Origin: Trypanosoma brucei
Taxonomy: Eukaryota
Assembly: GCA_000002445.1 (NCBI GenBank)
Contig: CP000070.1
Location: 992,001-1,056,000 of the forward strand
DNA length: 64,000 nucleotides
Direction of reading: 5' to 3'
Shown: positions 24,601 through 59,528 of the stretch, one piece after another
Position numbering within the stretch: the stretch's first letter is position 1
Layout of the letters: each line of letters opens with the position of its first letter
The notes under the pieces: generated by a model
Database searches by the model: none
Seen by the model: the letters and a program-made list of their open reading frames with translations, nothing else
What the model was told of the DNA's origin: nothing
Position numbers and translations under genes: made by a program

Positions 24601-27310
24601 TTTCCCCGTGTGAAAAAGAGTATTCGTACGCTCATTGGGGGGCTCAAACGCGCCTCCTTTAGTGTATTCAAACTGTTGCTGATTTTGAGTTCGAGGATTC
24701 TTATCACAGCATAGGTCTGATTTTACGTGGAATGCGACTGAATACCGGGTGGCTCCCCCTACCGAATACAAGCACGTTGGCAAAGTGCCTTTGAGAAACG
24801 AAGGGTGAGCTCTGGACTTCGCAGAAAATGGATATGCACAATGAAGGGGCACAACGCATAGTGATTCCTTGACGACATAACACCGGAGTGGCACAACCTT
24901 TTTAGTGTTCACGAGTGTCGACACTGTAAGGGGGTGGTTTTTGCGTAAGGTTCACGAAAAACAGGAGTGTGGAAAGGCATCAGTTGAGCCAACAGTTGAA
25001 TAGATGTTGAAACTCTTACTTATCCCAACACATTTACCATAACCAGCTACGGCCACGACGCCAGCACTGGAAGCAACACGTTCACCCGAAGGCATGCAGG
25101 TACCGGGTGCGCATATGAATTCGCGCTGCCGGCCACGACATCCAACCACACAGCTGGACATTGTACGAGTGAGTATTGTACAGTGGTACTCGGCAGAGAA
25201 CATGAGAATAACTAATGCAGGGGAAGGCGCGAGGAGGTTTTAAGAGCGAAAATGGTTGTCACCTCTGGACATAACAGTCCGCGGTGATTGTGAGTCCTCA
25301 AACTGAAGACCGGAACTGAGGTCAACCAACGATCGTCGCTGGACCACATTCGGGTTCAACACCATTCTTGATGCTGAAAGGGCTCATTTTCTTTTTACTG
25401 TTGTGGGGTATGCTTTCGATGGAAGATAAAGGGGGCGCTAAAAGAGTTTAGCAGCGCACATACGCACAAAGAAACGGAATAGTTAAGTGGAAGTGCCACG
25501 TATCAAACACAAAGTACTTAAAGTGTCTACGCGCGAAGCGCGCGAAACAATGAAAGTTAAGAAAAATTGTGCAGCCAGTATCGCATAGTTGAGATTTAGT
25601 CCTGATTATTGTGTTTTGAATCCGTGTCCCTCCTGGTGGGATCCCTTTCCACCTCCAGATTAAGGTGGTCAACGAGTATCGGTTCGTCGTTCAACATTAC
25701 GCTCGTCCCCCTTTTTTTTCCTTTTATGCTTCCTCACCGGCGTTCCATCCTTATGAGTTGGCAATAAAGTCGCTGCGGGGTTGGGTGGGTTCCCACTCCC
25801 AACAAGTATCTGCGCCACCTCCCGGTTTGGCTAAAACTTTCGATATAACGGCTCCGGCTGACGCAAATATTCGTCTCGTCCTGTTTAGATTCACGTATAC
25901 ATGAGGAGAAGGGTGCAACTTTTCAGCCAAATTTTACATTCTTCAGTTTAAAAAGTTTTGCGTGGAAAGTGCGTTGTCCGCTGCCGAAATGACGGCACCT
26001 TTCAAACAACGTGCTCTACCCCATATTGCCCCCGTGATGCCTTTAGAGGTTGACGGTGCAGTAAATCCAACAAAAAGTCGCCGCACTCTGCCTTTTAGAG
26101 TGTTGCATTCCTTTTCTATTTTGTGTTGTCCCCTGTGCCACATATCTTTGGTTAGAGCGCTTTGTTCCACGCGTTTTGCTTCACAGTGCGGTCGTTGGAG
26201 AGTCCTTTTGAGTCCGCTATATTACCAGGAACGTGCCGTCACTCATATCCCCCTTTATTGCACCTTTCGCCTTTGGGTGTGTATCCCCACTGCATTGAAA
26301 GAGCCATAGCATACCGTCATACTGCACGCCACGCCGTCCGGCCACATGTCGGGCGGAGGCCGCGCCGCTATAGAATGGAGGGAAATATACCTGCACACTG
26401 TCCTTCAACAACCAAGATCGTGTGGCGCAATGTCGTGTCGAACACACCGGGAAGCACAAAAAAAAAACTCCTATAAGTTGGGCGCCGACGCCCCGGCATC
26501 CCCGTTCAATGATAAGTGACCCTTTGCGGCGGTGTTGATAGTTACCTCGCGTCTTTTTTTTTTTTAATTCACGGATAGGGAAAGCCCACAAATAGCGGGG
26601 CACTGTTTTGTACGCGCGTGCAGCCGTACCGCTCTAGGTTGGAGCCATTTCCTTCGCGCTTGGACGCCGGCTTTCACCTTTTCTTTACCCTGCCGCACAT
26701 ACCCAACGTGCCGTTACCAGCGCGGTGCACTGCGACGTGCTGATGAAGATTTTGCTGTTCTCTGCGGTGACACCAGGTGGTCGCACCGGTTTTTTGTGAC
26801 TCATGGCAAAGCAATGTAAAAATATCGAAAAAAAAGGGTAAATACTCCGATTTCCCCTGTGCGCAATTGGTTTCGGCGCTGCTCGCAGCCGACGCCAACA
26901 AACGGTCACCATGCTCAGTGTTCTGCAGTCCCCGCAGTTTTAGCGCAACATGTCCTGCATCAAGTCGTGTTAATCATGCGACGGCCTCGTCCTGTAGGCC
27001 TTGCGCCTCTGCCGGTTGGTCACACTGCGTGGGTTGAAGCTGTGGCTACCTAATCGCTGCGAACTTTAAAATGTCAGAAACCTTCCAGGGAACCTTGTTG
27101 AGTGAGCCGGCCTCGCCGTTTTAAGATTTATTAGTCCCGTGCGCCGGAGTTTGTGCACACCCTAGGGGCTGAATGCGTTTGCTTTTTTTTTTTCTTCATG
27201 TCATTGATGCTTTTATTCAAGGCTCGAGTGAGAACGGTGGGTAACTACTGCATTAGAAGATCATCTAAAGAGTGTTCAGAGTGTTTTGCTTTTGAACAAC
27301 ATGGGTTATC
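21652..27310. promoter_or_regulatory. divergent strand-switch region between the two polycistronic units; probable bidirectional RNA pol II initiation zone; no ORF with coding character
   Basis: Every gene to the left is on the minus strand and every gene to the right is on the plus strand. The 5.6-kb interval has only short overlapping ORFs of non-coding composition. Contains a C14 tract (22445..22458), i.e. G14 on the coding strand of the leftward unit, as described for T. brucei divergent switch regions. Confidence 0.6.
22445..22458 (-). promoter_or_regulatory. G14 homopolymer on the coding strand of the minus-strand unit (C14 on the plus strand)
   Basis: Direct count in the sequence (ttga + 14 c + gaag). 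Guanine runs on the coding strand are a noted feature of trypanosome divergent strand-switch regions. Confidence 0.5.
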
Positions 27311-28231: not shown

Positions 28232-29358
28232 AGGATTAAGAGGGAACAGCACGTTGGCAGGCATTTTTGTTATTTACTAAGTTGTGGATGCGCTAGGAGC
28301 TTGTCGATTGGTTTTACTACTAATGAAAAGATGACTTTCCTGTTGTTCTTTGTTTTGATGCGATGTGGCAATAAATATGGTGCTCCGCGGACATTCGTAT
28401 AGCATCCTGCTGGCACTTTCCCTTCCTATTTCACATACACGTATACATTATTTACGCGTCATGCAGTTGCACATTTCTCTCTATAGGAGACCCAGGTATA
28501 GAGCGTGTCATCCATGGCTTGTGAGGATACGAAAGCTCGTGCAACCGCCGATCATTCGTTTCTATCGCAGAGTATCTCTTACGTACTGCTCGCGAAGTTA
28601 CTCACAGATTAAAGGGACTGTCATCTCAGCAGATTCAGTGGGGAGCCCTGTTATCAGTATTATATTTGTTGGTTTTCTTTTACTAATAAAACCACAGTGT
28701 GTGTACGTATGTTTGGGTGCCCGAAAGGCCAAGGTGGGGGCTTGTTTGTTTGAAGGCTTGTAGGCTTCCCCAATTGGACCCATTTCTCAAATCCGCACTA
28801 CTACTACGATATTGCATTCACTGTTGCGACAGTGTCTTTTGTTAAATGGTTTGCCTTCGCTGGTTGTTGTACTAGAAAAAAATGGACGGACCTACTTAAA
28901 AAACTGTGCACTGTCAGGTAATGTTGTTATATTCGATATTTCGTACCAGGCTTCGTGCTGTATCTACCTCCATCCATATACGGTCCTCGCTTCAAGCCGG
29001 GTTGGTACATATTATCCTATTGAACTGCCACTTCACTCTCCAGTTTTACCTTTCAGACCGGTATTGCTTTATGTGTGTTTTTCTACAGCGAACGCTGTAC
29101 AACCTAGTGTTAATTAGGAGGAATTAGTTATTGCATAGTTGTTTACTGGTTGTGTTTGGAATTTTGTGTTTCATCTGCCCTTTGTTTGTTTGAATTTTAT
29201 TGAAGATTCACATAAATCTATGTATATATGTATTTGTGCGCTTTTTGTCCCCTTTGAGCGACCAACTCACGGTTTCCTGTAATCATCAGTAGCCCTGCAC
29301 TACGTGTATATTCGTTTGCTCTTCATTTTTTCTTTTGCTTTTCTTTAGAAGCACCAAT

Positions 29359-38125: not shown

Positions 38126-40470
38126 AACCTGTGGTGTTTGAGGCATGATGGTCTACCCCCCGCCGTGCTCCTCACCAGCCATTTCTCATTGTTCCATGTG
38201 GCGAGCCCGCTACCTTTTTGCCCCTTTCTAAGTTGTGGCTGGTTTCAATTTCCAATTATTGTAATGCGAGCCTGCTGATAACTGCTCAGGGGAGACAATA
38301 AACGCATCGGGTCATTATGCACTTCACGGATACAAACACACACACGCACACACACCTCGTTTGACTTCTTTTTTTTTCCTTTGTGCTTCAAAGTGGCGCC
38401 GTTGGTTACAACATTTTAATTCAATGTAGAGCAAGGTGTGGTGCACCAGTTGTTGAAAGAAGGACCATATCTTGTCTGTGGTGGTGCGAAGAACCGTGCT
38501 TGCAACCCTGTGATACTGGTCAATTCGCCGTGGCGCCATGGGCTGGCACCTTGCGCAAGTAAAATAACAAAACCGGACGTAATCAGCCAACCTCATCAGA
38601 ATCAGGATGCGGCGGAAGAGTTGCGCCGTCACTCCCACAATGCGGCGTTCAGCAGACTCGTTACAGAGTAGCCAATAGCCCTTATAAGGGTCCCCGTGTG
38701 CGTGCAGTTGCGCTATCGACGGCCACTCGTGCAGCAATGCGATTTTTTAATTATTCCTGCGACGAACTGTAAAGCCTCTCACCACCACGATTACTCTCAC
38801 TTTTTATCTCAACTGACCCACGACCATCTACCAATTGACCTATCACAGTGCGCGAAAAGGGTGCCTGTCCGCGGCGGGCGGAGGGTATCCAATGGAGGTG
38901 TTTTTCTTTTTGCATGCAGCACACCACACAGAGGGGTGTATTGGGTTCATACACAGACCATTTGGAGGGTATACTTCTCGTTCTGTTTGTTGCTCTCGCG
39001 CAAATAATCACAATAGCGGTTGCAACAGTCGTTATGTGTTTTTAACACCCATTATCCTTTAGGGCCCGTTAGTATTGGACGCTTTGGCACCTTGTTTGTC
39101 GCTTCTGATTGCTCTAACTTTGATGGACATTCGAGACAGCAAATCTTTTACTTATACTTCAGAGTATCGGCACAAAGGAACGGTGAGGAGCGACTGCGGC
39201 CGTACGTAGGGGAAACTTACCTTCCCGCCTCTGCATGGCGTGCCGTTTGTGTTGTTTCGAGAGCTTCGGGGTCGTGGATATATATATATATATATATATT
39301 TTCGTTGGGTTGGACATAAGCCTCCTTATGGTGCCTTTGAGGCTCATCATCACGCATTTTGTGGGAGTGGTCATTATGCCTCATTTTAATGACGCTCCTC
39401 GAGTCTGAAGTATGTTTTGGAGGAAAGTCCCCGTTACCATGGCCATAAGCACTACTTTTTATATGTTATTGATCACTGCAGCAGCGGGCTCCAATGTTGT
39501 GGGCTCACACAAAGCAAAACTGCCCTCCTCGTGTGTGTGTGTGTGTGTGTGTGGACGTAACTACAGCGAGATGTTCATTGTTACCGGAAAGGACATCAAT
39601 TATTGTGCGTGGTGGAGGGTTTACGGGACCTTGAACGGGTTAGTATGTGTGGCTGCTGAGTGAAATCGGTTCCCAAAGCACTTCATTTTTCCTGATTTCA
39701 TAATGTCAATAAAGTTGTGGCAGGGATGGCGTGCGTGCACGTATGGCTTGAAGCAACGGGTGGGTAGCGTTACCAACATGGGAATGGGCGAGGCTTTTTT
39801 ATTCTCGCCACTAGTGCTCATTGCATTATTGGATCCACATACATTCACTATGGCTTTTTTTTTGGAAAATATCTCACCTTCCTTCGTGGACTTTTTGGTC
39901 TCGGGGGTAGTGTTTCCGGTTGCTGTCTCCATAGCCAATAAATGATGTTCCATCTATTTTTTGTTTAAGTTTTGTTACGCTTGGCTGCTTGCACCTGCAG
40001 AAGCCCACGGGGCCTGTCTCTTAACTCACCTTTTTTTTCGGTGCGTGTGCCTGCGTGTAGAATTACTCAATTGCCACCCCATTCATTCGTTCATCAAACA
40101 TATGTGTTTGAATACATATGCGTGTGTGCTTGAAGAATCAGGTTTCTCAACCTTGTTGAGCCCGGAACGAGCACCTATCTTTGCTTCCTCTTCCTTGTTT
40201 TGGGTGGAACTCCCCCACCCTTTGGATGCTCGTTCGTCCGTTCGGTTCCACTATTTTTTTTCTTTGCATGTTTGTGCTACCGAGGGTCGAAGGGGTAAGA
40301 TAGGAAAATCTACCTGTTAGGACGGTGCCTGCGGAATATACGTGTGACAGAGAAAAGTAGCGTTGGGTGCGAACACCGAGAGAGTATCTGTCATCAATTC
40401 AGATCTCGGCGAGTAACATTTATCGAATAAGACCTGTCGTACTCGTCACTCACTCTGTGGCAGAATACAA

Positions 40471-47337: not shown

Positions 47338-48300
47338 ATGACGTTGTCGTCCGGGAGCCTCCCCAATTTCTTTCCGAGCCTCGATGGCAGCAACATAAAC
47401 AACTTCCCGGATGAAGCCCCCACACCAATGCTCTCTATGCGCTATGACGACGGTTTCATGAATCTCGAGAACGGATCGCGACATCCTTCTTCGAACTGCA
47501 ATACCCCGAGCGTCCGTTTTCACAATGGCCTCGCCTGGGTGGAGAACTGGCAGCTGTCATCCTCTAACTTGGTACCGCAAACACCTCCGTCAGCGGCCAT
47601 TGGGCCCTCACGTTCCCCATCTTCATTCTCATTGATGAAATACAGCCATGATCCCTACGGTGTGCGTGGTAACAGTCAACCACAAATGCAGCAACGGGCG
47701 GCAGGTTGCATGATGGTGGGCCGTGGGCCTTCTCCGAACGGTTGCTCAAGTCCCGTGATGCGTCTCAGTTGTGTGGAGGATGGGTCATCGCGATTCGCAC
47801 CTGGTCATTCAGCAGTGGTGCCTTCGGCTATTGAACGTCCGCTCTCTCAAACAGGGCAGCGGGAATTCCCTGACGGGCGGCCACGCCGGAAGGGGCGCGC
47901 ACGTGATCGAACTCGTGGCGGGCGTTCTCTAGCTGACGTCCCACCTCCCACGAGTATGCGTTACTTCCCACCGCCACCACCGTGTTTAGAGAGCATGATT
48001 TCTTGTGGCATTTCGCAAGCAACCCTCGTAAAAATCGCGACGAGGTGGTATGAGCGTACCATCGCTTGCGAGCAGTCATATGTTGGCCGCCTGCATGGTG
48101 GTTGCGCTGTTCTCCACGGTGCGGCAGCGTTCCGACGGCAACCCATTCTCGGTAGTTTACAGCCGGTGTTGTGCCCCCGCATGGAACTCACGCTGCAGTT
48201 TACCTTTGATCAGTGGCTAAAAGCAGCGAGCCGATGGTGGGAGACTGTAATCCGCCCAATGACAATGGAATACCGACTGCCACCGCCCTATGTTTTTTAA
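47338..48300 (+). CDS. hypothetical low-complexity (Ser/Pro-rich) protein (320 aa)
   Basis: ORF on the cluster strand. About 400 nt of purine-rich sequence lies between the upstream polypyrimidine tract/AG (about 46760..46930) and the ATG. No domain recognised. Confidence 0.5.
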   Translation: MTLSSGSLPNFFPSLDGSNINNFPDEAPTPMLSMRYDDGFMNLENGSRHPSSNCNTPSVRFHNGLAWVENWQLSSSNLVPQTPPSAAIGPSRSPSSFSLMKYSHDPYGVRGNSQPQMQQRAAGCMMVGRGPSPNGCSSPVMRLSCVEDGSSRFAPGHSAVVPSAIERPLSQTGQREFPDGRPRRKGRARDRTRGGRSLADVPPPTSMRYFPPPPPCLESMISCGISQATLVKIATRWYERTIACEQSYVGRLHGGCAVLHGAAAFRRQPILGSLQPVLCPRMELTLQFTFDQWLKAASRWWETVIRPMTMEYRLPPPYVF

Positions 48301-51300
48301 CCTTTAGAGACACAGAGGGGAAAAGGGAAAAGATTCATTTACATATTTGTTTATTCGTGGGCGTACGAACATTTTCTTTCCGTCTCAGTTGTCAGCAGGT
48401 TTGGTCCACTTTCATTTTTCCTCCGTTCATTCCTGCTTACATCCGCATGGATTAAAACATTCGTAATTTTTTTTATTTGGTTTGTTTCTTCCACAGTCGT
48501 TGTTGTTTCCCCTATACTTACGGCTATCGTGTTTCGCACAGGTAGCTGCAGGCTGTTTGCTACGGGCACCGACATTAGTTTTTTGTTTTCTTTTTCGTTT
48601 GGACGACTTTTTTTTTTTTCCACCTCCCCCTCATTAAGAGTGAGAAATGTTTAACTGTATTGGGAGGTGAACAAATGGGTGTGAATTTAGTGGGGGAATG
48701 AGCGGTAATTTAGGAGAGAGAAGAAAAAAAAAAGGGAGAGAAGGTAAGGTAAAGTAAAGGAAAAGGGAAAAAGAAAAAAAACATTATCGTCAAATGGAGG
48801 TCGTGCACGTATTGGAACGTATACAAATACATTTACTTTTATGATTCATTTGTGTTTAGCACCTCATCTGAGTTACCCGACTACCCTCTTTTTCTCTTTA
48901 GCCACCTTTATTGAAAAAAAAAGGAAAAAAAAAGAAGAAACCCCCAGCGACAAATGTGGTGAAGAAAAGAGGTAAAACGAAAACAAAGCAAAATAACCTC
49001 AAAATAATAGTTATTTAATTATGAAACAGGGGCATAATGTTATACGAAAGGAGGAAAAGAGGTGATGGCGGGGGAACAGGACACACAAGCATACGCACGC
49101 ACACAAGCACACACACGAAAAATGAGAGAGAGAGAGAGAGAAAAAAAAATAAAAGTGAAAGAAATTAATTAAAATAGCCAAATAGAGATGAGGGAAACAA
49201 AGGGAAAGAGAAAAAAATAAAAAAAAAAGAACGAGGAAAGACAAAAATGATAGGAAACTAGCTGAAGTTAGAAACCAACAAGAAGTGAAGGAAACAAACA
49301 TGAATATATATATATATATATTGCAAGTCCAAAAGGGTTTTTTTAAAAAAAGGTTTGTGGGTTGGTGAAGCACCAAGGAAGAGGGGGAAAATGAGACTAG
49401 TTGAGCTGCTAGAAAAGAAAAAAAAATAAAGAAAGCGATTCTTTTCCCCCAAGTTAAATGTACACATACACATACACGCGCATGTAAATTATTACTATTA
49501 TTATTATTATTTTAGTGTGTATAACTTCCACAGTGAAGAAACAAAATTTCCCTGCCGTCATTGCCTGTACCAACTGTTTTTTTTTTTAAAAGAAGAGAAA
49601 TAAATGGGCAAATGAATGAGTAAATGTTTGTTTCGCTAAAGATTGAGAATAGGACGAATGAAAGGAATTTTGTGAAGTGTGTGCGGCTGCGCGCATCCTC
49701 TTCTTTTCTTACTTTAAAAAAAAAACAACACTTTTTTAACTCCTATTTCCCGTCTTCTTTTCCGTTTTTCCGTTTGTTCTCTGTGCTGATGTGCGTGAGG
49801 GGTTATTTTTGTTTTATTTTGTTGCGCATTTTTTGTTTCCTTATTGCTACATGCGCTTGACCCTTTCCTCCCTGTACCCCTTTTTACCAAAAGAAAAAAA
49901 AGAAAAAAAGAAGAAAAATAACAAGTAATGAGAAGGAATGAAAGTGACATGAATAAAATATTGGTTAAATATTTATTTGTGTGCGTGCGTGCGTGCGTGT
50001 GTGTGTGTGTGTGTTTTGACCTAATGAAACTGAAGCGGAGTCGAAAGAAAGAAAAAACAAAAAGAGGAGAAACATGTATTTATTGATATGTTACTAATTG
50101 AAGTTGAAAAGTTTCCCCACTGCTTAAGAAGAAGAAGAAACCTACATTTGTACACTTGTACAATCTCTTTTCCTTGTTTTGTTCTGTTTTATTTTACTTT
50201 AAATTTTTTTTGTTTTCTTGCGGCAATGGATTGGATGTGCGCGCGCATTCGGGAGTCTCCCCCTTCTTTTGTTTATTTATTTTTTTTTTTAGATAAGAAA
50301 AAAGAAATCAAGTCACTGAAACCAGACCAACAAATGAACATTGCCATCATTTTTGTTTTGATGCGAACTGGAAGCAATGAATGGGAATTCAATAAACAAG
50401 ACAAAACACACGTGAGTGTTGTGTGTGCAATAAAAAAAATAATAATAATAAAAGGAGGGGAAAGAAGGGGGAGAGGGAACAGGAGAGGAATTCGGGAGAT
50501 GGGGGGAATTCCCCTTTCTTTTATTTTATTTCCATAAGGAACAGAGTTAAACGGAAATAAAAATAAAAAAAATAAAAAAAATAAAATAGTAATAATAATA
50601 TATGTATCCCTCCAATTCCCTCTCTAACTCTCCTCTGAATGACTCCGTGAATGCGCGCGTTATTTTCCTTATTTCTCCGTGCCATTTATAAATTGCTGCT
50701 TTCTGATTCCCTCCTTTCCCCACTTCTAAAAAAAAGAACAAGAAAACAAAAAGAAGGAAAAAAAAAAGAAGAAACTCCACCGGTGTTTTTGAAAACTAAA
50801 GAAATTCAGCGAACCCATTTTGATTTGTTTAGTGGTGTTCGTTTTCTTTTTTTTTTCAATTATTATTTGCGCAGTTTTTCGTTGTTTCATTCCATTAATA
50901 TTCCCCCCCCTCTTTTCTCCCAGTGGAGGTGGGTGGCATTAGGACATGTTAGTGGTGATAATATTGCCGCTGTTTTTTTTTTCTCTTTTTCTTTTTAGCT
51001 GGCTGCACTTTACTTAATTATGTTATGAGTTTCTTTTTTTCTTCTTTTTTTCTTTTTTTTTTTGTATGTGTGTGGACGTGCGGTGATGAGTGTGACGACG
51101 ATGACGGTATGAGAGGACGGTACGGGAAGCACTTTAGTTCTTTTTTCTTTTTACATTAATAATAGTAATAATATAAATAGTAATTAAATGTAATAATAAT
51201 ATTAGTACAATATCAACGGGATGGGGAATCAAAATAATTAAAATGAAATTACTTGCGGCAGCGGCACCACCGCCGTCAGAACCGGAGGCGCGGCAATAAA

Positions 51301-54300
51301 AATAAAATTAAAGTGAAAAAAAGAGGAGGAGGAGGAAATGTGCACGGATGTTCCTTTCGTTGTTGTTGTTGTTTTTTTTTTTTTGCTAATTTCCTTATTT
51401 TAATCGCTTATATTATTATTATTATTATTATATTATATTATATTATTACAGCTTTTATTATTATTATTATTGTTATTATCTTTTTATCTTTTTGCTTTTG
51501 GGACCCGCACATCCCCTCTTTTTTTTCTTTATTTTTATTTTTCTTTGCTATATTTTATTGTTGTTTTAGCGTTAGTGAAAGTGGCTGCGGTGTGGAAGAC
51601 CTTTCTTCTTTTTTTTTGAAAATGAAAAAAACGAATTGCACCTGCAAATTCACGAAAGGAAACGAGAGAGTTAAAAAAAAAAAAGAAAGGAGAGAGAGAG
51701 AAAAAAAAAAAATTATTTTTAATAATTTTTTTTTTAAAAAATCACAATAATAGAAGGCAGAGACTCCGAGGCGTTGAACCATTGATGAGTTCAAGTACGA
51801 AAAGTGTCAACGATGTGTAGGATATTTGAGATGCCATAATAACACCACCAACAACAACATTTGTCTTTTTTTTTTTTTAAAACTTCATTCACGTTTGTTT
51901 CTTCATTTTTTTTTTCACTGATTACTCCGTGTGAGTAATTAGCGGGAATAAAAGAAGAGGATAAACAAAAAAAAAGCATAAAGAAGGAAATGTGAGAAAT
52001 GGATGGCTTCATGCACACACACACATATATATATATATATGTTGGAGCACTAGCTAGCCGTTACATTTCATTTTTGTTTGGTTGGCTTTGTTTTATTCCG
52101 TTTTTCTTGTTCAAACGTCCTCTTTTTTTTTTAATTATTTTATTTTATTGCTTTTGTTTGGTTTTGTCTAAAAGTTTCTTTTTTTTTTTTTTGCTTCCGC
52201 TACGGTGTGGAGTTCCACTTGTGACATGAGAGAACAAAAAGACATTTACACATATATTTCTTCAAGACCCCACATAACAGGACTTGATGAAAAAGGAACG
52301 AAACTCAACGCAACAGGAACTAGTGATTAAGCGAATACACGCAAAAAATTATATTAAATATATCTATATATTTATATATCTATATTAGATATATAATAAA
52401 TATATAAAAGATAATATATATATATATATATATATATAAATGTAATGTAATACACAAATATATGCACACGGATGTGATACAGAAACTGACGGTGTCAAGT
52501 GATGGCGGAGACAAGCGAATATGAAAAAAAAATAAACGAGAAAACCGAAACGGCTCGAGAGAAGGTGAAGAAGAAGAAGAGAGAGCAAGAGGGATAATTT
52601 AAGGAAAATAAAATAAAGAAAAAAAAGGGGGGGAAAAATCACGAAACGTGCGGAAGGAGGAAAAAAAAAACGGAACAAAAAGTGAATGAAAAATATTTAG
52701 GGATGTATTCTTTCTTTCTTCCTTTTTTTCTTTTTAGAAATCTTTTGCTTTACCGGGGCCAAAGGTCAGTAAGTAGGCGTCTTCTTTTTTTTTTTTTGTT
52801 TTTTTTTAAAAAAGGGAAAGAGAGAGAGTAATCTTTACTTCGGTGGCTGACGATTCTGTTGTTTTGTTTTTCCCTCTACTGTTGGTTTCGATCGACACCC
52901 CATTTTTTATTTCAGTCGCTCTCACCTTTTTCTTTGTTGTTTTTTTTTTCGTTTTGTTCTATTCATTTCGTCAACTTTACTTTCTTGAACAGACAAAAAT
53001 CTTTATGTGTCTGTGGAGGAACTGATGTTGTGCCTAGTCAGTTAATTTTTTTTGTTGTCGTTGCAATTCGCACTATTGTGTCCTTATGTTTTTTTCCTCA
53101 TTTTCCCTTTTTTGTAAAACAAAAAGAAGAAAAATTGTGTTTTACAATTTGATTGATTTAATTACTTGTTTTATTCCACCTTCCACTTGTTTCTTTTCTT
53201 TTTCTTTTTGCCCACCTTTTGAGATATAAATATAAATATAAATATAAATATAAATATAAATATATATATATATATTTATTTGTATATCATGTTTTGCTTT
53301 CAGATGTTTTGTTACTGTTGCTGCCACTTGTGAAAGCGCACATGTTGCCAAAATTCAGGCCTCCCCCCTTTTCCCCTCTTTTTTTTTCTCGTCTGTTTCG
53401 GTTTTTATGTCGTTTTTTTTTTTTAGTCTGTGTTATTTGTGCGTCTTCCTTTTTTTTCTTTTGAAGAAAAAATTTCTCTTCCGTTTTGTTTTTATTTTCA
53501 TTGCGTTGGCTGCAATTATCTTTTTTTTTTGTTTTTTTATTCCCGATATTGATTGTTTTTGTTATTGCCGCTGAGGCCGCCATATCCGCCAACGCACAAA
53601 CAAAAGGACAAAAGGAAGAAGAAGAAAAAGAAAAAAAGATAAACAATAAATAAATGAAGAATTAATTATATTTATATACACTAAATGTAATGATTATTGC
53701 GTACGAAGAAGTAAACGAGAAAATGCATGTTTTTTTTTTAAAGGAAAGAGGAAGAAGAAGAAAATGAAAATGAAAAGGGAAAGAGGAAGAGGAGGAGGAG
53801 GAGGAAGAGGAAGGAGAGGGATAAAAAAGAATTTAACATATGCAAGTGCACGGGAAAACGCACATAATTTGCTACAGTGTTTCACAACTATGCACGTTTT
53901 TTTTTCTTTTTTACACGTCGACTAATTTCCCTTTAAAATTCTTCTTCTTTTCAGAGTTTCTCAATTGCTTCTGCTTATGTTTGCCCACGAGTTATTTCGT
54001 ATGAACCCGTTGGTAATATTTCGATTTGTTATATTTATATTTCACTTTTACACCGCTGCAGTTTTTCATATCTTTGCGATTACTCCTTCTTTTCTTTTCT
54101 ATTTCCATTTCTGCTTTCGTTCTTTTCTTTTTCTCTTTTTTTTTAAAATGCTCTTAGTTAAAGCTACCTTCTACCATCTTTTTAGTGCGTGATTTACTCA
54201 TATAAATAATATATACATATCTGCTTAATCTCATTATTTGAAGGGAATAAAAGGGTCCCTCAGATGAGGAAGGGAATTTACAAGTAAAATAAGTTAAATT

Positions 54301-54990
54301 AAAAAAAATGAAGGGGAAATAAATTAAGGCATTATGACATTTAGGTGGTTGCAACACCGCCCCATAATTTAAAAAAAATTCATTGGTGCGATTGCTGGCC
54401 CTTTTGTTTTTCTTTTTGAGTTATTGCTGCTGCTGTTTTTGCTTGTTTAAATAATGCATGGACTCCCTGGTATATTCCTCCACATTGACCTTGGGAAGAA
54501 AATGTAATTACACTAATTATTGTGGTGATAATGCAGAGGCGGAATGAACGAATTACACGTGGTCACCCATTTTTAAAAAAAATCTCCCATCTCCTTTTTT
54601 TTTTGAAAAATGAGTTTTTACTCCTTTGATCGTCCTTTGTTCTCTCTTTGTTCTTCATTTATTTATTTATTTTTGTGTGCTCACATTGCTTCCCTAATGG
54701 AGGGGTTGGATTACAAGAAGAGGAAAGTCGTGAGAAGAAAGGTTTTAAATCTTAATTTAGTAAAGTGGCGATTGTTTATTTACGCTAGTGAGTATAGGCA
54801 CCGTTGCGCAAAGCGGCTTTCAAAGCAAAAATAGCAGCCGTGACAAGGAGGTGCGAGGAGGGAAAAAGAATATATATATATATATATATATATTTATTTA
54901 CAAAGAAAGGAAAGAAAAACTGGGGGAGGGGGTTTGCATACCCAACGACACACTGGATTCGTTGACGTTGGTTGTTGCGCTTCATAGGGT
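48301..54990. repeat. about 6.7-kb AT-rich low-complexity ORF-free tract with alternating purine/pyrimidine strand skew, dense in microsatellites
   Basis: No ORF over 165 aa, and the ones present are homopolymeric K/F/L noise. Microsatellites: (GA)n 49125..49145, (TA)n 49305..49321, (ATT)n 49490..49510, (GTGC/GT)n 49982..50022, (ATT/TAT)n 51400..51480, (TA)n-rich 52340..52440, (ATAAAT)8(TA)n 53227..53277, (GGA)n 53760..53812, (TA)n 54870..54895. UAUUUAU-type AU-rich elements on the plus strand near 49965, 50088, 50270 and 54658. Confidence 0.85.
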
Positions 54991-54999
54991 TCCACTTAA

Positions 55000-57714
55000 A
55001 TGACCATCACTGTGGATCTATTTGGTGAGGCGGATTGCAATGATGGCGAGGGGCACATGTGGTCCGCCGATGTTGCGAAATTCACTGAAGTGCCTGAAGT
55101 GCCGCGTGTGTTTGCCGATTCTCAGCATTACATTACTTACACCACAAAAAAGGGCAACTCTCTGAGGGTGGTAAAGCGCTTGAACCTTGCCAGAGGCACT
55201 GTGCGTGGCCACACAACACCAATTCATTCCGTTCGCTTTGTAAATTATCGAAGCAACGTCGCAGCGTCTGCCAGCAAGGGGGAGTTTTTCGTTTGGGTTG
55301 TGACAGACAGCGGGGAGGGAGGAACCGGGCGCCCTTCAGCTGATGCAGAGCTTACAATTAACATGTACTTTAGGCTCTCCGACCCCGTCACCATTTCGTG
55401 CTTTTCATTCTTTATTAATGCAGAAAATAAGCGGCCTGACGTATTGGTTCTGCACGACCAGCAGGCGAGCATCCTTGATTCCTCCGCCCTCATTGCGCTA
55501 TACCGTGACACCCCTCTCACTGCGACGCTTAAGCAGAACAGCACGGCTCTGCGGAAGTTGGCTAGTAATGTTACTGCAAATACTCTCTGCTCTGTGGGGT
55601 CAGGTGGCTGGTTTGCCTTCACTACGGATTCAAATATGGTCGCTGCTTGCACTTTGCAGAACCGCAACACACCACCATGGTCCTGCTGTGAGGGAGCTCC
55701 TGTTCACTCACTCCACCTGCTGGATACACCCCACGCTGAGAAGACAACTCTCGTTGCTTCCTGTTCGCGGGTAGTATATCAGTGGTCGCTGAGTGGGGCG
55801 TCAGAGCCGACATTGCTACGAAAGTTTGCTGTTGACGGTACCATCGTGTCGCTGGAGGGCTCGCGCGATTCATTTGCAGTGTTCAATGACAAACGGAAGT
55901 TAGCGGTGGTTCGGATCCAGTCTCCGAAGGAATTTACGTGCACACGGTATACTCTACCGTGGCAGGTGCGCCGGCGTGGGACTTGCTTCAACTGCGTAGG
56001 CGGAGAGTCTTATATAATGGCTGACAATGACGATCGTTTGACAGTCATGCAGCTTAAGGCCAATGCTTCCAGTGGCGCTGGCAAGCGGGAAAGTCCCTTG
56101 AACACACGTAGGAGTCCTGCTGGAGCAGCGAAGCCGGCAAGTAATGTGTTGGCCCCCACCACTGGCACAAAGATAAAGTCGAACTCGTCCACTCAACCGA
56201 CTGGTAGTATTATCGCTAACCTGGTTAATCGCCTTGGGATATGCAGTGTTGGAATGGCACCCCCAGCATCGTCTAACACATCCTCACCAGCAACCGCAAC
56301 GGCAACAGGAAGTGCACCCGATGTAACTTCTGCTTCAGCGAATGCTACGCAGCGTGGAGCTTTGCATGGTTACAGCAACCAACCCGTAACGGCGGGTCTT
56401 GGTAGCGGCAGTAGTGCGGGCGCATCCAAAGTATTCACACCGGCCTTGTCGAAATCGTTAGCGGCTTCTGCCGGCCGCGGTCACGGTAGTTCTTCCATCA
56501 GTCCCGCAAGCGCCCAGCTGTCGGCCGCTGTCAATGCCAATAACCTCACGCACTCTTCACGGCCAGCGCTTCACAACGCCTCTTTGCCACAGGCTCCAAC
56601 TGATGGCGTGCTCGCAACTGTTTTGCAGCAAACTGAAGATGAGGTGCACCAGGAATTGGAGCGACTTGATTCCGTCATGAAAAACACACTGCAAGTACTT
56701 CAGTTGACTCCCGACACCATCCACCGGGCACATGAACAGTTGTTAAGCTTAAGCCTTGAAGCGCAGATGACAGAGCTACAGCAACAGCAAGAACGGCAGA
56801 AAAATGCATCCTTGTCCAACTCTGCAGGGTTTACTCCCTTCGAGACTTGTGTGCTTTTATCTATTCTTGATCCACTTTCACAAAGCATCGCGAACGGATT
56901 AACCCGTGGTGTTGAGGATGCTATGATGGCCAATCTTGAACATGGAGTGCGGCACGCTTTGGTAAACCGTGCGCGGACTACACAGAAGAGTGCAATGAAG
57001 GCACGCCTTGATGAAGTACTGAAGGAGAGTTCCTCACAGTTTCTTGCGCAGGTAGAACAGACTGTGCGTAACGTTGTGGAAAATGAGCTTGCGGAAGTGT
57101 TTGGAGATATTAATGGTTTACTGACGGCGCTAGAGAATGATAACGTTCGACTTCAGCGGGAATTGGAGGCGATTATGGCCTCGGATGTTATCACCGAAAT
57201 GAAGAAAACTCGAGAAGAACTTGAGTCGTTGCGCGAGGCAGTGACGAACCAACAGTTGGCCATTGGAACGGGGTCACAGCTAGTGAGTCGTCCCTCTCCC
57301 GAGACCGTGTTATCAACAACAACTGAATTAATACAACAGCAACAATATCGCCAAGGATTGGAGTACATTATTATGGCGGAACAACCTCAACTGGTTCTTC
57401 AGCTCTTCGTTGCCCTGAAAAAGAAAACTGAGAATGTATATTCGGCACTGATTGAGGATCCCGCAACCCCTAATGACGTATGGCTTCGTGTTATTGTGCA
57501 AATTACCGGCGCGGCGACGTCTGAGAAGGATATTGATGCGGTTGTGGGTGTTCTCATCGACATCCTTTCGGAGAGGGAACAGCTGCTGCAAAAGACGGGC
57601 CCGACCGCAAAACTAACTGAAAGTTTGCATTCGTTCGTAACTGTGGGGAAATCTGGGAGAAAGTGCTCCGCGGGGCTGCGAAACTTCAAGAACTTGGAGA
57701 AGTTACTGCCATAG
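55000..57714 (+). CDS. hypothetical protein (904 aa): N-terminal WD40-like beta-propeller, central Ser/Thr/Ala-rich disordered linker, C-terminal alpha-helical/coiled-coil domain
   Basis: WD-like blades (H-T-T-P-I-H-S-V-R-F ... F-F-V-W-V-V-T-D; V-V-Y-Q-W-S-L). Residues about 370-540 are S/T/A/G-rich. The C-terminal 350 aa is heptad-like (L-E-R-L-D-S-V-M-K-N-T-L-Q-V-L-Q-L ...). Confidence 0.7.
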   Translation: MTITVDLFGEADCNDGEGHMWSADVAKFTEVPEVPRVFADSQHYITYTTKKGNSLRVVKRLNLARGTVRGHTTPIHSVRFVNYRSNVAASASKGEFFVWVVTDSGEGGTGRPSADAELTINMYFRLSDPVTISCFSFFINAENKRPDVLVLHDQQASILDSSALIALYRDTPLTATLKQNSTALRKLASNVTANTLCSVGSGGWFAFTTDSNMVAACTLQNRNTPPWSCCEGAPVHSLHLLDTPHAEKTTLVASCSRVVYQWSLSGASEPTLLRKFAVDGTIVSLEGSRDSFAVFNDKRKLAVVRIQSPKEFTCTRYTLPWQVRRRGTCFNCVGGESYIMADNDDRLTVMQLKANASSGAGKRESPLNTRRSPAGAAKPASNVLAPTTGTKIKSNSSTQPTGSIIANLVNRLGICSVGMAPPASSNTSSPATATATGSAPDVTSASANATQRGALHGYSNQPVTAGLGSGSSAGASKVFTPALSKSLAASAGRGHGSSSISPASAQLSAAVNANNLTHSSRPALHNASLPQAPTDGVLATVLQQTEDEVHQELERLDSVMKNTLQVLQLTPDTIHRAHEQLLSLSLEAQMTELQQQQERQKNASLSNSAGFTPFETCVLLSILDPLSQSIANGLTRGVEDAMMANLEHGVRHALVNRARTTQKSAMKARLDEVLKESSSQFLAQVEQTVRNVVENELAEVFGDINGLLTALENDNVRLQRELEAIMASDVITEMKKTREELESLREAVTNQQLAIGTGSQLVSRPSPETVLSTTTELIQQQQYRQGLEYIIMAEQPQLVLQLFVALKKKTENVYSALIEDPATPNDVWLRVIVQITGAATSEKDIDAVVGVLIDILSEREQLLQKTGPTAKLTESLHSFVTVGKSGRKCSAGLRNFKNLEKLLP

Positions 57715-59528
57715 CGTCGGGTGCTGTTCACATGAAGGAGGGAAAAGAAGGATCAAAACAATATATCCGCGATAACAAATGTGTCTAAAAATGAAAACCA
57801 TAATAAGACAAAAAGAGGGAAATAAATAAACAAAAATAGGTAGTGGTGGTTTGGAAGGTGCAACATGTAGGTGTCGGTGGTTGTGACGATACCGGGATGT
57901 TTGGAAGAGATCAGTGTAATATTTAATCCATGATTGTCTGTTATCAATTTCCGGGATGACGCATAGGCGTGTGAGAGAGCGCATGTGGGCGTTGCTACCC
58001 CCAATATCCTGATTTGAGTGAGGGGACCACACACGATTTTGTTATCTTCATTTTTTTTAAAAACTTTTAATTGAGGGAAGGAAAGGGAGACAGGGAGAAG
58101 AAGCGACGGAAGACGTGGAAGGAAGAGGGGTCGAGCTGGAGGAAAGAAGCAAATGTGGATGTAGTCAACACGGCCGCCAAACACCGGATGTGGAGCCGTT
58201 CTGAGGAGGCCCCGTTTGTTGCGTTGGTGTGGCCTTCAGCTTCTTTTCGTTATTGAAGTGCATGAGGTTTATTATAATAGTTCTTGGGACCAACGAAGGG
58301 AGCGCCAAGAAGGTGGATAAAAGCAAAATAAGGAGGAGGAGGGGGGGGGGACCGGAAAAAGGAAAAAAAAATGAAAGAGGGAGCGCGTGAGGCAGTGGCG
58401 GTGGTGGGGAATTGAGAACTCTCAGGGTTGAAACTCCTCAATACTCTCCGCATTACTGTGCTTCTTTAAACGCGGAGAAGTATGGGCTGCGGTAGGCTAT
58501 CGATGCGTGCGTCCGCATGTACGTGAAACCTGTTCTTCGCTGTATCACTGGTACAGCGTTTTCATTGGAAGAACAAAGCTGTTGCTTTGCACACGTTTTG
58601 TTATTTGTTTTTGCCCTTCTTCGCCGTTGTAATTCCCTGCGTGGTGTCTGCAAAGATATTCTTACCTTCCAGTGCACATATATATATATATATATATGTT
58701 CAACTACCCTCATTTTCATTTCAAACTTTCGTCTAAGTAAAAATAAAAGGGGAACGGTAATATTTGGAGGTCGCACAGGAGGAGACGGCGGCTAGAGTAA
58801 GGTAGGGGGGCAAGAAAGTCCCACTGGGCGCGCAAATATCCGTTCAAGGAAAAAATAATAAGGCAAAGAAGAAGTAGGGAGAGGGGGTGCAAAAAAAAAA
58901 AAGACAGGCGGAGGCATTTAACGAAGTCAGCATACACACATTACAAACACACACGCGAATAAACGTACAAGCGAGCATAGACACAATCCCACAAAGCCCA
59001 ACAACTGTTGGTTGCAACCGCACTGCTGACACTTGAGGCGGGCGAGGGGATAGAGAAAATAACGTTGACCAGTGACTCTGGTTGGTTTTTACACTCACAC
59101 ACACATACACAACCACGATCCATAAATTATCCAATAGACTTATTTTTGCTCTTACCGTTGTTTTAGCAGTTTACGCACCCTGTGCTGCTCAGTTGCCCGT
59201 ATTTTTGAATGCGACGTACTTTCAGTCGCTACGCACGGTTCGCGGTGTGTCAGCAGTCTACTGGTGCAGGGACCATAGAGGGCCCTCTCCGTTTGCGCTC
59301 GGCAGATCAGACAGTAGTGTGGTGTTGCGCCGCAGCTGGGCGGAGGTCCTGGTTTTGCCTGCTTCCCAACTCGGTACGCGCGGGGTTGCATGAGCCACGC
59401 CGGTTCGCGTCAACGAGGGCCACGAATTCGCGCAAACCAGCGAGGGTTGCGCGATCGGGCGCCTCTTCACGAGCGCCACGCAAGGGCCCCAGACATTCAC
59501 AGGGGTTGAAGTCATCGCAGGAAAGTGA

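What the first reader, a model, noticed from the sequence alone, without database searches (positions are those of the whole stretch)
48301..54990. 6.7-kb AT-rich microsatellite-dense ORF-free tract inside a unidirectional gene cluster
Other intergenic spacers in this window are 0.4-2.3 kb; this one is 6.7 kb and far more AT-rich and low-complexity. It has alternating purine-rich and pyrimidine-rich blocks and at least nine distinct microsatellites, including an (ATAAAT)8 hexamer array. Three interpretations are possible. (a) An exceptionally long 3' UTR of the 320-aa gene at 47338..48300, or a long 5' UTR of the 904-aa gene at 55000. Multi-kb 3' UTRs with UAUUUAU elements (present here at about 49965, 50088, 50270 and 54658) are characteristic of developmentally regulated regulators in T. 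brucei. (b) An internal Pol II termination and re-initiation (head-to-tail) site. (c) A fragile or recombination-prone spacer. A centromere is unlikely, because there is no long uniform satellite array or retroelement debris and the tract is only 6.7 kb.
Basis: partly seen in the sequence, partly recalled or inferred. Interest (0 to 1): 0.55.

Follow-up and report, generated by a model that had tools for sequence, protein, structure and literature searches.

The report
Giant 3' UTR of Tb927.7.3970
The 6.7-kb AT-rich "empty" tract is real, but it is mostly the already-annotated 5.7-kb 3' untranslated region of the Trypanosoma brucei gene Tb927.7.3970, a known kind of oversized regulatory mRNA tail, so it is ordinary for this organism.

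Summary
Window 48301-54999 (6,699 nt) has 33% GC against about 50% in the flanks. It has no credible ORF, tRNA or Rfam hit, and it holds 68 of the window's 98 tandem-repeat rows.

The window is T. brucei TREU927 chromosome 7, 992001-1056000. The flanking genes are Tb927.7.3970 (320-aa ORF) and Tb927.7.3980 (Tc40-antigen-like).

Published data settle what the tract is:
- The 3' UTR listed for Tb927.7.3970 in a published data table is 1040301-1046043, which is window 48301-54043 (5,743 nt).
- Poly(A) mapping gives a mean 3' UTR of 3,966 nt with very dispersed sites.
- No independent novel transcript was called inside the tract.
- Both genes lie in one Pol II unit (Tb927.7.3890 to Tb927.7.4240) with no internal start site.

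The last 956 nt are the inter-mRNA gap plus the 5' UTR of Tb927.7.3980.

A spacer of 4.2-6.7 kb follows the orthologue in T. vivax, T. cruzi and T. melophagium. Its length is conserved but its sequence is not. The tract is dense in both A-rich purine and U-rich pyrimidine tracts, like the RBP10-type long regulatory 3' UTRs.

The feature is already known, and interest is low.

The parts
47338..48300 (+). Coding sequence of Tb927.7.3970, a conserved hypothetical protein. The ORF is 320 aa. TREU927 annotates only residues 31-320 (290 aa, CDS 873 nt).
   Evidence: ORF list. Exact cluster look-up gives XP_846020 and T. equiperdum/gambiense entries. The 290-aa product is the C-terminal part of the ORF. 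Gene ID follows from the coordinate match with published tables.
48301..54043 (+). 3' UTR listed for Tb927.7.3970 in a published data table (5,743 nt). AT-rich, microsatellite-dense, with alternating A-rich purine and U-rich pyrimidine tracts.
   Evidence: Trenaman et al. 2024 Supplementary Data 1: UTR_Start 1040301, UTR_End 1046043, + strand, with window offset 992000 validated on four genes. Purine tracts 5.6/kb and pyrimidine tracts 7.1/kb.
50554..50586 (+). Most-used poly(A) site in the Kolev 2010 procyclic data (chr7 1042554, giving a 2,254-nt UTR), directly followed by a 32-nt genomic A-rich run. It is either a real proximal site or an oligo(dT) internal-priming artefact.
   Evidence: Kolev Table S13, sequence context, TRF A-run at 50555-50586. 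A polypyrimidine tract at 50707-50727 with an AG at 50735 lies 181 nt downstream.
54083..54157 (+). Longest polypyrimidine tract of the tract (62 nt, 54083-54144) followed by the first AG (54156-54157). This is the predicted processing signal that sets the distal poly(A) site at 54043 and a trans-splice site for the downstream mRNA.
   Evidence: Polypyrimidine scan. The poly(A)-to-AG distance is 113 nt, against a published median of 142 nt. Use of this AG is inferred, not shown.
54044..54999 (+). Inter-mRNA gap plus the 5' UTR of Tb927.7.3980. Further candidate acceptor signals are polypyrimidine tracts at 54583-54604 and 54633-54674 with AGs at 54613 and 54701. An (AT)14 array lies at 54870-54897.
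   Evidence: Remainder after the listed UTR end, polypyrimidine scan, TRF. The splice site actually used was not found in the data I could read.
55000..57714 (+). Coding sequence of Tb927.7.3980, an immunodominant Tc40-antigen-like protein (904 aa).
   Evidence: Its listed 3' UTR, 1049715-1050612, corresponds to window 57715-58612.
53224..53275 (.).
   Evidence: TRF: 97% matches, score 90.

Best explanation
The tract is not an empty spacer. Its first 5.7 kb (window 48301-54043) is transcribed as the 3' untranslated region of Tb927.7.3970. The last ~1 kb is the processing gap plus the 5' UTR of Tb927.7.3980.

**Shown.** Pol II reads through the whole region as part of one polycistronic unit.

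**Inferred.**
- The distal poly(A) site is set by the strongest polypyrimidine tract of the region (54083-54144), which also directs trans-splicing of the next mRNA.
- The UTR carries about 33 further sense-strand polypyrimidine tracts with nearby AGs. These are potential cryptic processing sites. Their partial use explains the very dispersed poly(A) sites.
- Their suppression is probably by polypyrimidine-binding proteins such as DRBD18, which would allow the ~7-kb mRNA to be made.
- The UTR acts as a long landing platform for RNA-binding proteins. A-rich purine tracts promote translation, U-rich pyrimidine tracts counteract or mask them, and many redundant elements give robust control.
- This is the RBP10-type design. 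It is used here for a conserved protein that carries an MKT1-binding H(D/N)PY motif and is therefore probably itself a post-transcriptional regulator.
For: **Identity of the locus.**
- The flanking proteins are exact matches to Tb927.7.3970 and Tb927.7.3980 entries.
- The window-to-chromosome offset of 992000 reproduces four published CDS ends.

**UTR.**
- Listed 3' UTR 1040301-1046043, + strand. The UTR set of that study was manually revised with nanopore direct RNA reads carrying spliced leader or poly(A).
- Poly(A) mapping: mean UTR 3,966 nt, most-used site at 2,254 nt, dispersion 2,158 nt.
- The genome-wide median is 388 nt and the range reaches about 6,000 nt.

**No separate transcripts or start sites.**
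- No novel transcript was called in 1040301-1046999.
- It is a single Pol II unit, Tb927.7.3890 to Tb927.7.4240.

**Processing signals.**
- The 62-nt polypyrimidine tract and its AG lie 40-113 nt after the listed UTR end.

**Conservation.**
- A gene-free spacer follows the orthologue in T. vivax (5.2 kb), T. cruzi (4.2-5.65 kb) and T. melophagium (6.05 kb). Neighbouring spacers there are about 0.4-1 kb.
- In T. melophagium a mannitol-dehydrogenase-like gene separates the tract from the Tc40-like gene.

**Composition.**
- Purine tracts 5.6/kb and pyrimidine tracts 7.1/kb. This fits the published class of >2-kb UTRs rich in both.
- In a predicted fold, 212 of 351 paired purine-tract bases pair with pyrimidine-tract bases.

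**mRNA behaviour.**
- The mRNA is among the 30 mRNAs most enriched with EIF4E3, alongside RNA-binding-protein mRNAs.
- An MPRA fragment at 52889-54629 was scored 'increased' at FDR 0.052.

**The protein.**
- (K/R)Y(S/C)HDPY is invariant in 8 Trypanosoma species, and Leishmaniinae orthologues have YRHNPY. This matches the MKT1-binding consensus.
Against: - I could not view read coverage. The UTR end comes from a published data table, and I cannot tell whether this particular UTR was among the 4,703 that were manually revised.
- The most-used poly(A) site in the 2010 data is at 2.25 kb, so much of the mRNA may carry a shorter UTR. That site abuts a genomic A-run and may be an artefact.
- There is no nucleotide conservation with T. 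vivax, T. cruzi or T. melophagium.
- Within T. brucei the tract evolves at least as fast as other spacers: 1.6-1.9% substitutions against 1.2-1.4%. No specific element is therefore supported by conservation.
- The single reporter fragment is weak (log2FC 1.48, FDR 0.052).
- RBP10 pull-down enrichment is 2.2-2.4-fold, below that study's cut-off.
- Regulation of this gene and MKT1 binding are untested.
Confidence: 0.88

Rival explanations
1. The tract is largely non-functional. It is a run of expanding low-complexity DNA that happens to be transcribed and is tolerated. Its length and content are not under selection, and mRNA 3' ends form wherever a cryptic signal is used.
For: - No sequence conservation between species.
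- The substitution rate equals or exceeds that of other spacers, and the indel rate is 2-3 times higher.
- Poly(A) sites are very dispersed.
- Only marginal reporter activity.
Against: - A spacer above 4 kb is retained at exactly this position in every Trypanosoma species examined, despite complete sequence turnover. Adjacent spacers stay at 0.4-1 kb.
- The composition matches a class of UTRs with demonstrated regulatory activity.
Confidence: 0.15
2. The tract hosts independent transcripts, either long non-coding RNAs or small-protein genes, rather than or in addition to one long UTR.
For: - The T. b. gambiense annotation calls four ORFs of 105-143 aa inside it.
- There are 36 sense polypyrimidine+AG signals.
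- UTR-internal transcripts, and RNAs derived from downstream UTR pieces, are documented for other genes.
Against: - Those ORFs are low-complexity, have no Pfam hit above cut-off and are not conserved in other species.
- Kolev Table S7 lists no novel transcript in this interval.
- No Rfam or tRNA hit.
Confidence: 0.1
3. The tract is an internal head-to-tail Pol II termination and re-initiation site.
For: - The spacer is unusually long, has GT-rich runs (49978-50014) and lies inside a unidirectional cluster.
- Internal start sites do exist elsewhere in T. brucei.
Against: - Table S14 of Kolev et al., based on 5'-triphosphate RNA and histone marks, lists Tb927.7.3890 to Tb927.7.4240 as one unit. 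The 'internal' sites on chr7 are elsewhere.
- No tRNA or snRNA gene.
- The listed UTR and mapped poly(A) sites imply continuous transcription.
Confidence: 0.03
4. Most of the tract is a very long 5' UTR of Tb927.7.3980.
For: The tract ends at that gene's ATG, and 5' UTRs up to about 2.5 kb exist.
Against: - The UTR is assigned to Tb927.7.3970, with poly(A) sites measured from its stop codon.
- In T. melophagium another gene lies between the tract and the Tc40-like gene.
- The strongest polypyrimidine tract lies at 54083-54144.
Confidence: 0.02

Closest known systems
RBP10 (Tb927.8.2780) 7.3-kb 3' UTR and other 'extraordinarily long' 3' UTRs of T. brucei regulator mRNAs (Bishola Tshitenge et al. 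2022, PMC8982893)
   Same: A multi-kilobase, low-complexity 3' UTR inside a polycistronic unit. It has many internal polypyrimidine tracts and (AU) repeats. Several poly(A) sites are reported within it (dispersion about 2.2 kb). The encoded protein is plausibly a post-transcriptional regulator.
   Different: RBP10's UTR has been dissected experimentally, with six independent stage-specific elements. It belongs to an RRM protein with strong bloodstream-specific expression. For Tb927.7.3970 no regulation, no functional element and no RNA-binding domain is known.
Class of >2-kb 3' UTRs dense in both A-rich poly-purine and U-rich poly-pyrimidine tracts (Trenaman et al. 2024, PMC11405848)
   Same: Length 5.7 kb. 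High density of both tract types, arranged in alternating blocks. One fragment scored as 'increased' in the positive arm of their reporter screen.
   Different: I used a simple proxy for tract density (uninterrupted runs of 9 nt or more), not their FIMO motif counts. Whether this mRNA is up-translated in bloodstream forms was not checked.
DRBD18-dependent suppression of UTR-internal processing sites (Bishola Tshitenge & Clayton 2022, PMC9380746)
   Same: A long UTR full of polypyrimidine tracts followed by AG. Poly(A) sites are dispersed.
   Different: I could not access any evidence that this mRNA is bound by DRBD18 or shortened when DRBD18 is depleted.
Internal Pol II transcription boundaries (head-to-tail sites) and centromeric AT-rich repeats of T. 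brucei
   Same: Unusually long and AT-rich non-coding DNA inside or between gene clusters.
   Different: It is not listed as a transcription-unit boundary. It has no long-period satellite array and no tRNA gene.

Membership tests
Long regulatory 3' UTR of a trypanosome mRNA (RBP10 type) | Starts at the stop codon of a sense-strand gene and lies inside one Pol II polycistronic unit | tested here: met
   The tract starts at 48301, right after the stop of Tb927.7.3970. Kolev Table S14 gives a single unit from Tb927.7.3890 to Tb927.7.4240.
Long regulatory 3' UTR of a trypanosome mRNA (RBP10 type) | Mapped poly(A) sites or annotated UTR end several kb downstream of the stop codon | tested here: met
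   Listed UTR of 5,743 nt. Poly(A) mapping gives a mean of 3,966 nt and a most-used site at 2,254 nt. These come from published tables; I did not inspect reads.
Long regulatory 3' UTR of a trypanosome mRNA (RBP10 type) | No independent gene or processed transcript within it | tested here: met
   No novel transcript in Kolev Table S7. No Pfam-supported or conserved ORF. No Rfam or tRNA hit. The transcript data are from the procyclic stage only.
Long regulatory 3' UTR of a trypanosome mRNA (RBP10 type) | [quoted passage not shown] | tested here: met
   5.6 and 7.1 tracts per kb, each covering 10% of the UTR, against 0-5 per kb in other spacers. This is a proxy measure, not the published FIMO count.
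Long regulatory 3' UTR of a trypanosome mRNA (RBP10 type) | Segments confer regulation on a reporter | tested here: inconclusive
   Only one MPRA fragment (window 52889-54629): 'increased', log2FC 1.48, FDR 0.052.
Long regulatory 3' UTR of a trypanosome mRNA (RBP10 type) | Developmentally regulated mRNA or protein | not tested
   Only single-stage values were seen: 15 RNAs per cell in procyclics and about 210 RPM in bloodstream forms.
Internal Pol II termination/initiation site | Called as a transcription-unit boundary from 5'-triphosphate RNA and histone marks | tested here: not met
   Not listed in Kolev Table S14. The chr7 internal sites are at Tb927.7.3470 and Tb927.7.7460.
Internal Pol II termination/initiation site | H2A.Z/H4K10ac or H3.V/base J enrichment | not testable with these tools
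   No ChIP data were accessible.
T. brucei centromere | Tens of kb of AT-rich long-period satellite repeats with retroelement remnants | tested here: not met
   The largest repeat period in the tract is 26 nt and no array exceeds 90 nt.
MKT1-interacting proteins (for the encoded protein Tb927.7.3970) | Conserved (Y/W/T)(R/T/Q)H(N/D)PY motif | tested here: met
   YSHDPY at residues 102-107 is invariant in 8 Trypanosoma species. Leishmaniinae orthologues have YRHNPY. The consensus is from Singh et al. 2014.
MKT1-interacting proteins (for the encoded protein Tb927.7.3970) | Physical interaction with MKT1 (two-hybrid or co-purification) | not testable with these tools
   The gene is not in the main-text Table 4 of Singh et al..

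The most novel reading that the evidence does not exclude
Tb927.7.3970 may be an unrecognised MKT1-recruiting post-transcriptional regulator that is conserved across trypanosomatids. Its 4-7-kb 3' UTR has been kept at that size throughout the genus Trypanosoma despite complete sequence turnover. In this reading the UTR is a selected multi-input control module, with regulated choice between a ~2.3-kb and a ~5.7-kb form and purine/pyrimidine-tract masking. That would make it a second RBP10-like switch gene.
Probability: 0.25. Interest if true: 0.45.

Novelty: already known. Interest (0 to 1): 0.15.

Why it matters
For genome scanning, the lesson is practical. In trypanosomes a multi-kilobase, AT-rich, microsatellite-dense "desert" inside a gene cluster is usually a giant 3' UTR. 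It is usually not a centromere, an origin or a transcription boundary.

For trypanosome biology, the locus adds one uncharacterised candidate to the short list of genes with extreme 3' UTRs. The protein has no known domain. It does have an invariant MKT1-binding-type motif and an orthologue in the same gene order in Novymonas (Leishmaniinae). The extreme UTR length is conserved across the genus Trypanosoma. That makes it a reasonable target for anyone studying why regulators carry such long UTRs, but nothing here changes current understanding.

Tried and rejected
**Searches inside the tract that found nothing**
- Rfam at gathering score and ARAGORN over the whole window gave no hits. A snoRNA or tRNA cluster is rejected.
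- Pfam on the largest tract ORF and on the four ORFs that the gambiense annotation places in the tract gave nothing above cut-off.
- blastn of the tract against the syntenic tracts of T. vivax, T. cruzi and T. melophagium, all pairs, gave only low-complexity matches with no collinear blocks. Phylogenetic footprinting therefore failed.

**Motifs**
- UAUUUAU as an ARE signal: enriched over shuffles but equally so on the antisense strand, so rejected as evidence.
- The RBP10 motif UAUUUUUU has only one sense copy.
- RBP10 pull-down enrichment is below threshold.

**Supplement searches that led nowhere**
- Antwi 2016 and the 2026 ARE/GRE paper do not mention the gene.
- The DRBD18 paper has no text supplements held.
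- Kolev Tables S4, S5 and S12 were cut before chromosome 7, so individual splice-acceptor and poly(A) positions, and the 5' UTR of Tb927.7.3980, could not be read.
Ribosome-profiling, lncRNA (Guegan 2022) and MKT1 two-hybrid supplementary lists were not checked.

**Other**
It was repeated with permitted ones.
- T. congolense DNA could not be fetched, because the proteins are known only from UniRef.
- A centromere, a mis-assembly and a long 5' UTR were all considered and rejected, as set out in the observation check, rival explanations and membership tests.
Full report
**1. What is in the sequence**

The interval between the stop codon of the 320-aa ORF (47338-48300) and the ATG of the 904-aa ORF (55000) is 6,699 nt. 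Its GC content is 0.332, and every 1-kb window within it lies at 0.30-0.345. Coding regions and other spacers in the window are at about 0.40-0.54.

It is the longest spacer in the window. Same-strand spacers are 0.2-2.3 kb, and the only other large one is the divergent strand-switch region.

TRF places 68 of its 98 rows inside this 10.5% of the window.

The purine fraction in 100-nt windows swings from 0.22 to 0.84, confirming the alternating purine and pyrimidine blocks.

The longest ORF is 165 aa, starts with TTG, is low-complexity and has no Pfam hit. There is no tRNA and no Rfam family at gathering score.

**2. Where the window comes from**

The two flanking proteins are exact matches to database entries of the T. 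brucei group. The upstream one is a conserved hypothetical protein (XP_846020 in TREU927, annotated there as the C-terminal 290 aa). The downstream one is 'immunodominant antigen, Tc40-antigen-like' (XP_846021). Both lie on a 2.2-Mb chromosome.

Upstream lie a mitochondrial carrier, the RET1-type terminal uridylyltransferase and mitochondrial ribosomal protein L16. The literature identifies the Tc40-like gene as Tb927.7.3980, and the hypothetical gene is its upstream neighbour Tb927.7.3970.

A published table gives the UTR of Tb927.7.3970 as Tb927_07_v5.1:1040301-1046043 and that of Tb927.7.3980 as 1049715-1050612. With a 2,715-nt CDS, Tb927.7.3980 starts at 1047000, so the spacer is 1040301-1046999, or 6,699 nt. 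That is exactly the window tract.

The window is therefore chr7 992001-1056000. This offset also reproduces the CDS ends of three other genes from an independent table: Tb927.7.3940 (window 41466), Tb927.7.3900 (29901) and Tb927.7.3880 (19321).

**3. What the tract is**

- **UTR annotation.** The 3' UTR listed for Tb927.7.3970 is 5,743 nt, window 48301-54043. The authors say their UTR set was manually revised on TriTrypDB/Apollo using nanopore direct-RNA reads that carry the spliced leader or poly(A).
- **Poly(A) mapping.** Kolev et al. 2010 Table S13 (procyclic forms) gives for this gene a read-weighted mean 3' UTR of 3,966 nt, a most-used site at 1042554 (2,254 nt, window 50554) and a dispersion of 2,158 nt. 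The genome-wide median is 388 nt and the range reaches about 6,000 nt. This UTR is therefore at the extreme top of the distribution, and its 3' ends are very heterogeneous.
- **Novel transcripts.** Table S7 of the same study lists novel transcripts at window 26302-27200, 28467-29219 and 38394-40245, but none in the tract.
- **Transcription units.** Its Table S14, built from 5'-triphosphate RNA reads and histone marks, lists one Pol II unit from Tb927.7.3890 to Tb927.7.4240. The chr7 'internal' initiation sites are elsewhere.

The bulk of the tract is therefore a 3' UTR and not a transcription boundary.

**4. Anatomy of the processing signals**

Polyadenylation in trypanosomes is positioned by the downstream polypyrimidine tract and AG used for trans-splicing. 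The published median distance is 142 nt.

The longest polypyrimidine tract in the whole tract is 62 nt (54083-54144). It starts 40 nt after the listed UTR end, and its first AG is at 54156, 113 nt from the poly(A) site. This fits the rule, and I infer that this signal sets the distal end.

The remaining 956 nt (54044-54999) contain two more polypyrimidine+AG candidates, with AGs at 54613 and 54701. They must hold the 5' UTR of Tb927.7.3980. I could not find the acceptor site actually used.

Inside the UTR there are about 33 further sense-strand polypyrimidine tracts of at least 20 nt, each with an AG nearby. That is 5.4 per kb, against 0-5.4 per kb in other spacers. These are potential cryptic sites and plausibly explain the dispersion of poly(A) sites.

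One caveat applies. The 2010 'major' site at 50554 is immediately followed by a 32-nt genomic A-rich run, so it may be an oligo(dT) artefact. It also has a polypyrimidine tract and AG 153-181 nt downstream, so it could be real.

**5. Comparison across strains and species**

Within the T. brucei group:
- The tract is collinear at about 97% identity in T. b. gambiense DAL972 (6,680 nt) and in assembly GCA_003543875.1 (about 6,740 nt).
- Substitutions run at 1.6-1.9 per 100 sites, against 1.2-1.4 in the larger neighbouring spacers and 0-0.6 in coding sequence.
- Gap columns run at 2.6-3.5 per 100, against 0-1.2.
- It therefore evolves like, or slightly faster than, other non-coding DNA, with extra microsatellite slippage. 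It is not a mis-assembly.

Several draft assemblies break inside or next to it. I read this as an assembly problem with low-complexity DNA.

In other species, the orthologue of Tb927.7.3970 is followed by a long gene-free spacer in the same gene order:

| Species | Spacer length |
|---|---|
| T. vivax | 5.2 kb |
| T. cruzi (four assemblies) | 4.2-5.65 kb |
| T. melophagium | 6.05 kb |

Neighbouring spacers in those loci are about 0.4-1 kb. ORFs in these spacers are low-complexity and not shared between species. There is no collinear nucleotide similarity between any pair of species.

In T. melophagium a mannitol-dehydrogenase-like gene lies between the long tract and the Tc40-like gene. This shows that the tract belongs to the upstream gene.

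In the leishmaniine Novymonas the gene order is the same, but the orthologue is 1,071 aa and the spacer is 2.4 kb. The extreme length is thus a feature of the genus Trypanosoma. It is conserved in size but not in sequence.

**6. How it most likely works**

Shown:
- The region is transcribed as part of one polycistronic unit.
- It is assigned to the Tb927.7.3970 mRNA.
- Poly(A) sites are spread over kilobases.

Inferred from established work on comparable UTRs:
- Long trypanosome 3' UTRs carry many redundant regulatory elements bound by different proteins. For the 7.3-kb RBP10 UTR this has been proposed as a fail-safe design.
- DRBD18 is associated with long polypyrimidine-rich UTRs. Its loss unmasks internal processing sites, giving shortened mRNAs plus RNAs derived from the downstream UTR.
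- A-rich purine tracts raise translation. [quoted passage not shown]

The Tb927.7.3970 UTR fits this class by composition:
- Purine tracts 5.6/kb and pyrimidine tracts 7.1/kb, each covering 10% of the UTR.
- In a minimum-free-energy prediction, 60% of the paired purine-tract bases pair with pyrimidine-tract bases. This is weak evidence, because folds of 5.7 kb are unreliable.

Direct functional data are thin:
- One reporter fragment scored 'increased' at FDR 0.052.
- The mRNA is among the 30 mRNAs most enriched with EIF4E3, together with mRNAs for UBP1/2, ZFP1, ZC3H20 and ALPH1.
- It is enriched 2.2-2.4-fold with RBP10, below that study's cut-off.

**7. The encoded protein**

It has no Pfam domain. 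The sequence (K/R)Y(S/C)HDPY is invariant in eight Trypanosoma species. Orthologues from Leptomonas and Novymonas and an unnamed metagenome relative (1,071-1,267 aa), found by an exhaustive profile search, carry YRHNPY. They also carry the same downstream blocks: a basic run, MRYFPPPPP, RWYER, CPRxE and WW. A further 501-aa hit shows the downstream blocks but not that motif.

This matches the MKT1-binding motif (Y/W/T)(R/T/Q)H(N/D)PY defined by Singh et al. 2014. It is a lead that the protein is a post-transcriptional regulator, which would fit the rule that regulators have giant UTRs. The interaction is untested.

**8. Comparison with what is known, and verdict**

The feature is an instance of a well-described kind, the very long regulatory 3' UTR of trypanosome mRNAs, and it is already listed in public data tables. 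The internal-boundary, centromere, long-5'-UTR and hidden-gene readings each fail a test (see the membership table).

What is not in the literature I could search:
- any study of this particular UTR or protein
- the genus-wide conservation of the UTR's size
- the conserved MKT1-type motif

These are modest additions. Novelty: already known. Interest: low (0.15).

Noticed in passing
window 47338-47427 (first 30 codons of the 320-aa ORF): TREU927 annotates Tb927.7.3970 as 290 aa, starting at Met31. The 30 upstream codons are conserved in T. congolense and T. vivax (MALSSGSFPNFFPS...), and other T. brucei-group annotations use the 320-aa form. The reference start codon may therefore be mis-set.
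   Followed up: partly
window 47641-47658 (residues 102-107 of the 320-aa protein): The YSHDPY motif is invariant in 8 Trypanosoma species and appears as YRHNPY in Leishmaniinae orthologues. It matches the published MKT1-binding consensus. The protein is otherwise uncharacterised and has no Pfam domain.
   Followed up: partly
window 6857-9860, inside the minus-strand ORF 6727-12138: There are 25.7 nearly identical (99%) tandem copies of a 117-bp unit, encoding 39-aa coiled-coil repeats. They lie in the tail of a 1,803-aa kinesin (Pfam Kinesin motor, E 7.5e-100).
   Followed up: partly
window 21652-27310: This is the divergent strand-switch region between Tb927.7.3880 (minus strand) and Tb927.7.3890 (plus strand). 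It is listed as a divergent Pol II start region by Kolev et al. A published novel transcript, Tb7.NT.39, maps to 26302-27200. GC is about 0.50, unlike the tract under study.
   Followed up: partly
window 38126-40470: The second-longest same-strand spacer (2.3 kb) is not empty. Kolev et al. list a 1,851-nt novel transcript, Tb7.NT.41, at window 38394-40245. The gambiense annotation calls a 126-aa ORF there.
   Followed up: no
L008 7270-8460 (T. melophagium): A mannitol-dehydrogenase-like gene (Pfam Mannitol_dh plus Mannitol_dh_C) sits between the long tract and the Tc40-like gene. It is absent at this position in T. brucei, T. vivax, T. cruzi and Novymonas, so it may be a lineage-specific insertion or a horizontal transfer.
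   Followed up: no
L002 12712-16636 (T. b. gambiense DAL972, syntenic to the tract): The gambiense annotation places four 'genes' of 105-143 aa inside the tract. They are low-complexity, have no Pfam hit above cut-off and are not conserved in other species. They are probably spurious gene calls.
   Followed up: yes
L003 end, L014 end, L009 start, L010 start, L007 start: Draft assemblies of T. equiperdum OVI, T. conorhini, Leptomonas seymouri and one T. cruzi strain all have contig ends inside or next to the syntenic spacer. This suggests the low-complexity tract regularly breaks short-read assemblies.
   Followed up: partly
L015 10001-13216 versus window 47338-48300: The orthologue is 1,071-1,267 aa in Leishmaniinae but only 308-435 aa in Trypanosoma, while the downstream spacer shows the opposite trend (2.4 kb against 4.2-6.7 kb). 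The extra protein sequence is low-complexity and lies mainly between the MKT1-type motif and the conserved C-terminal blocks.
   Followed up: no
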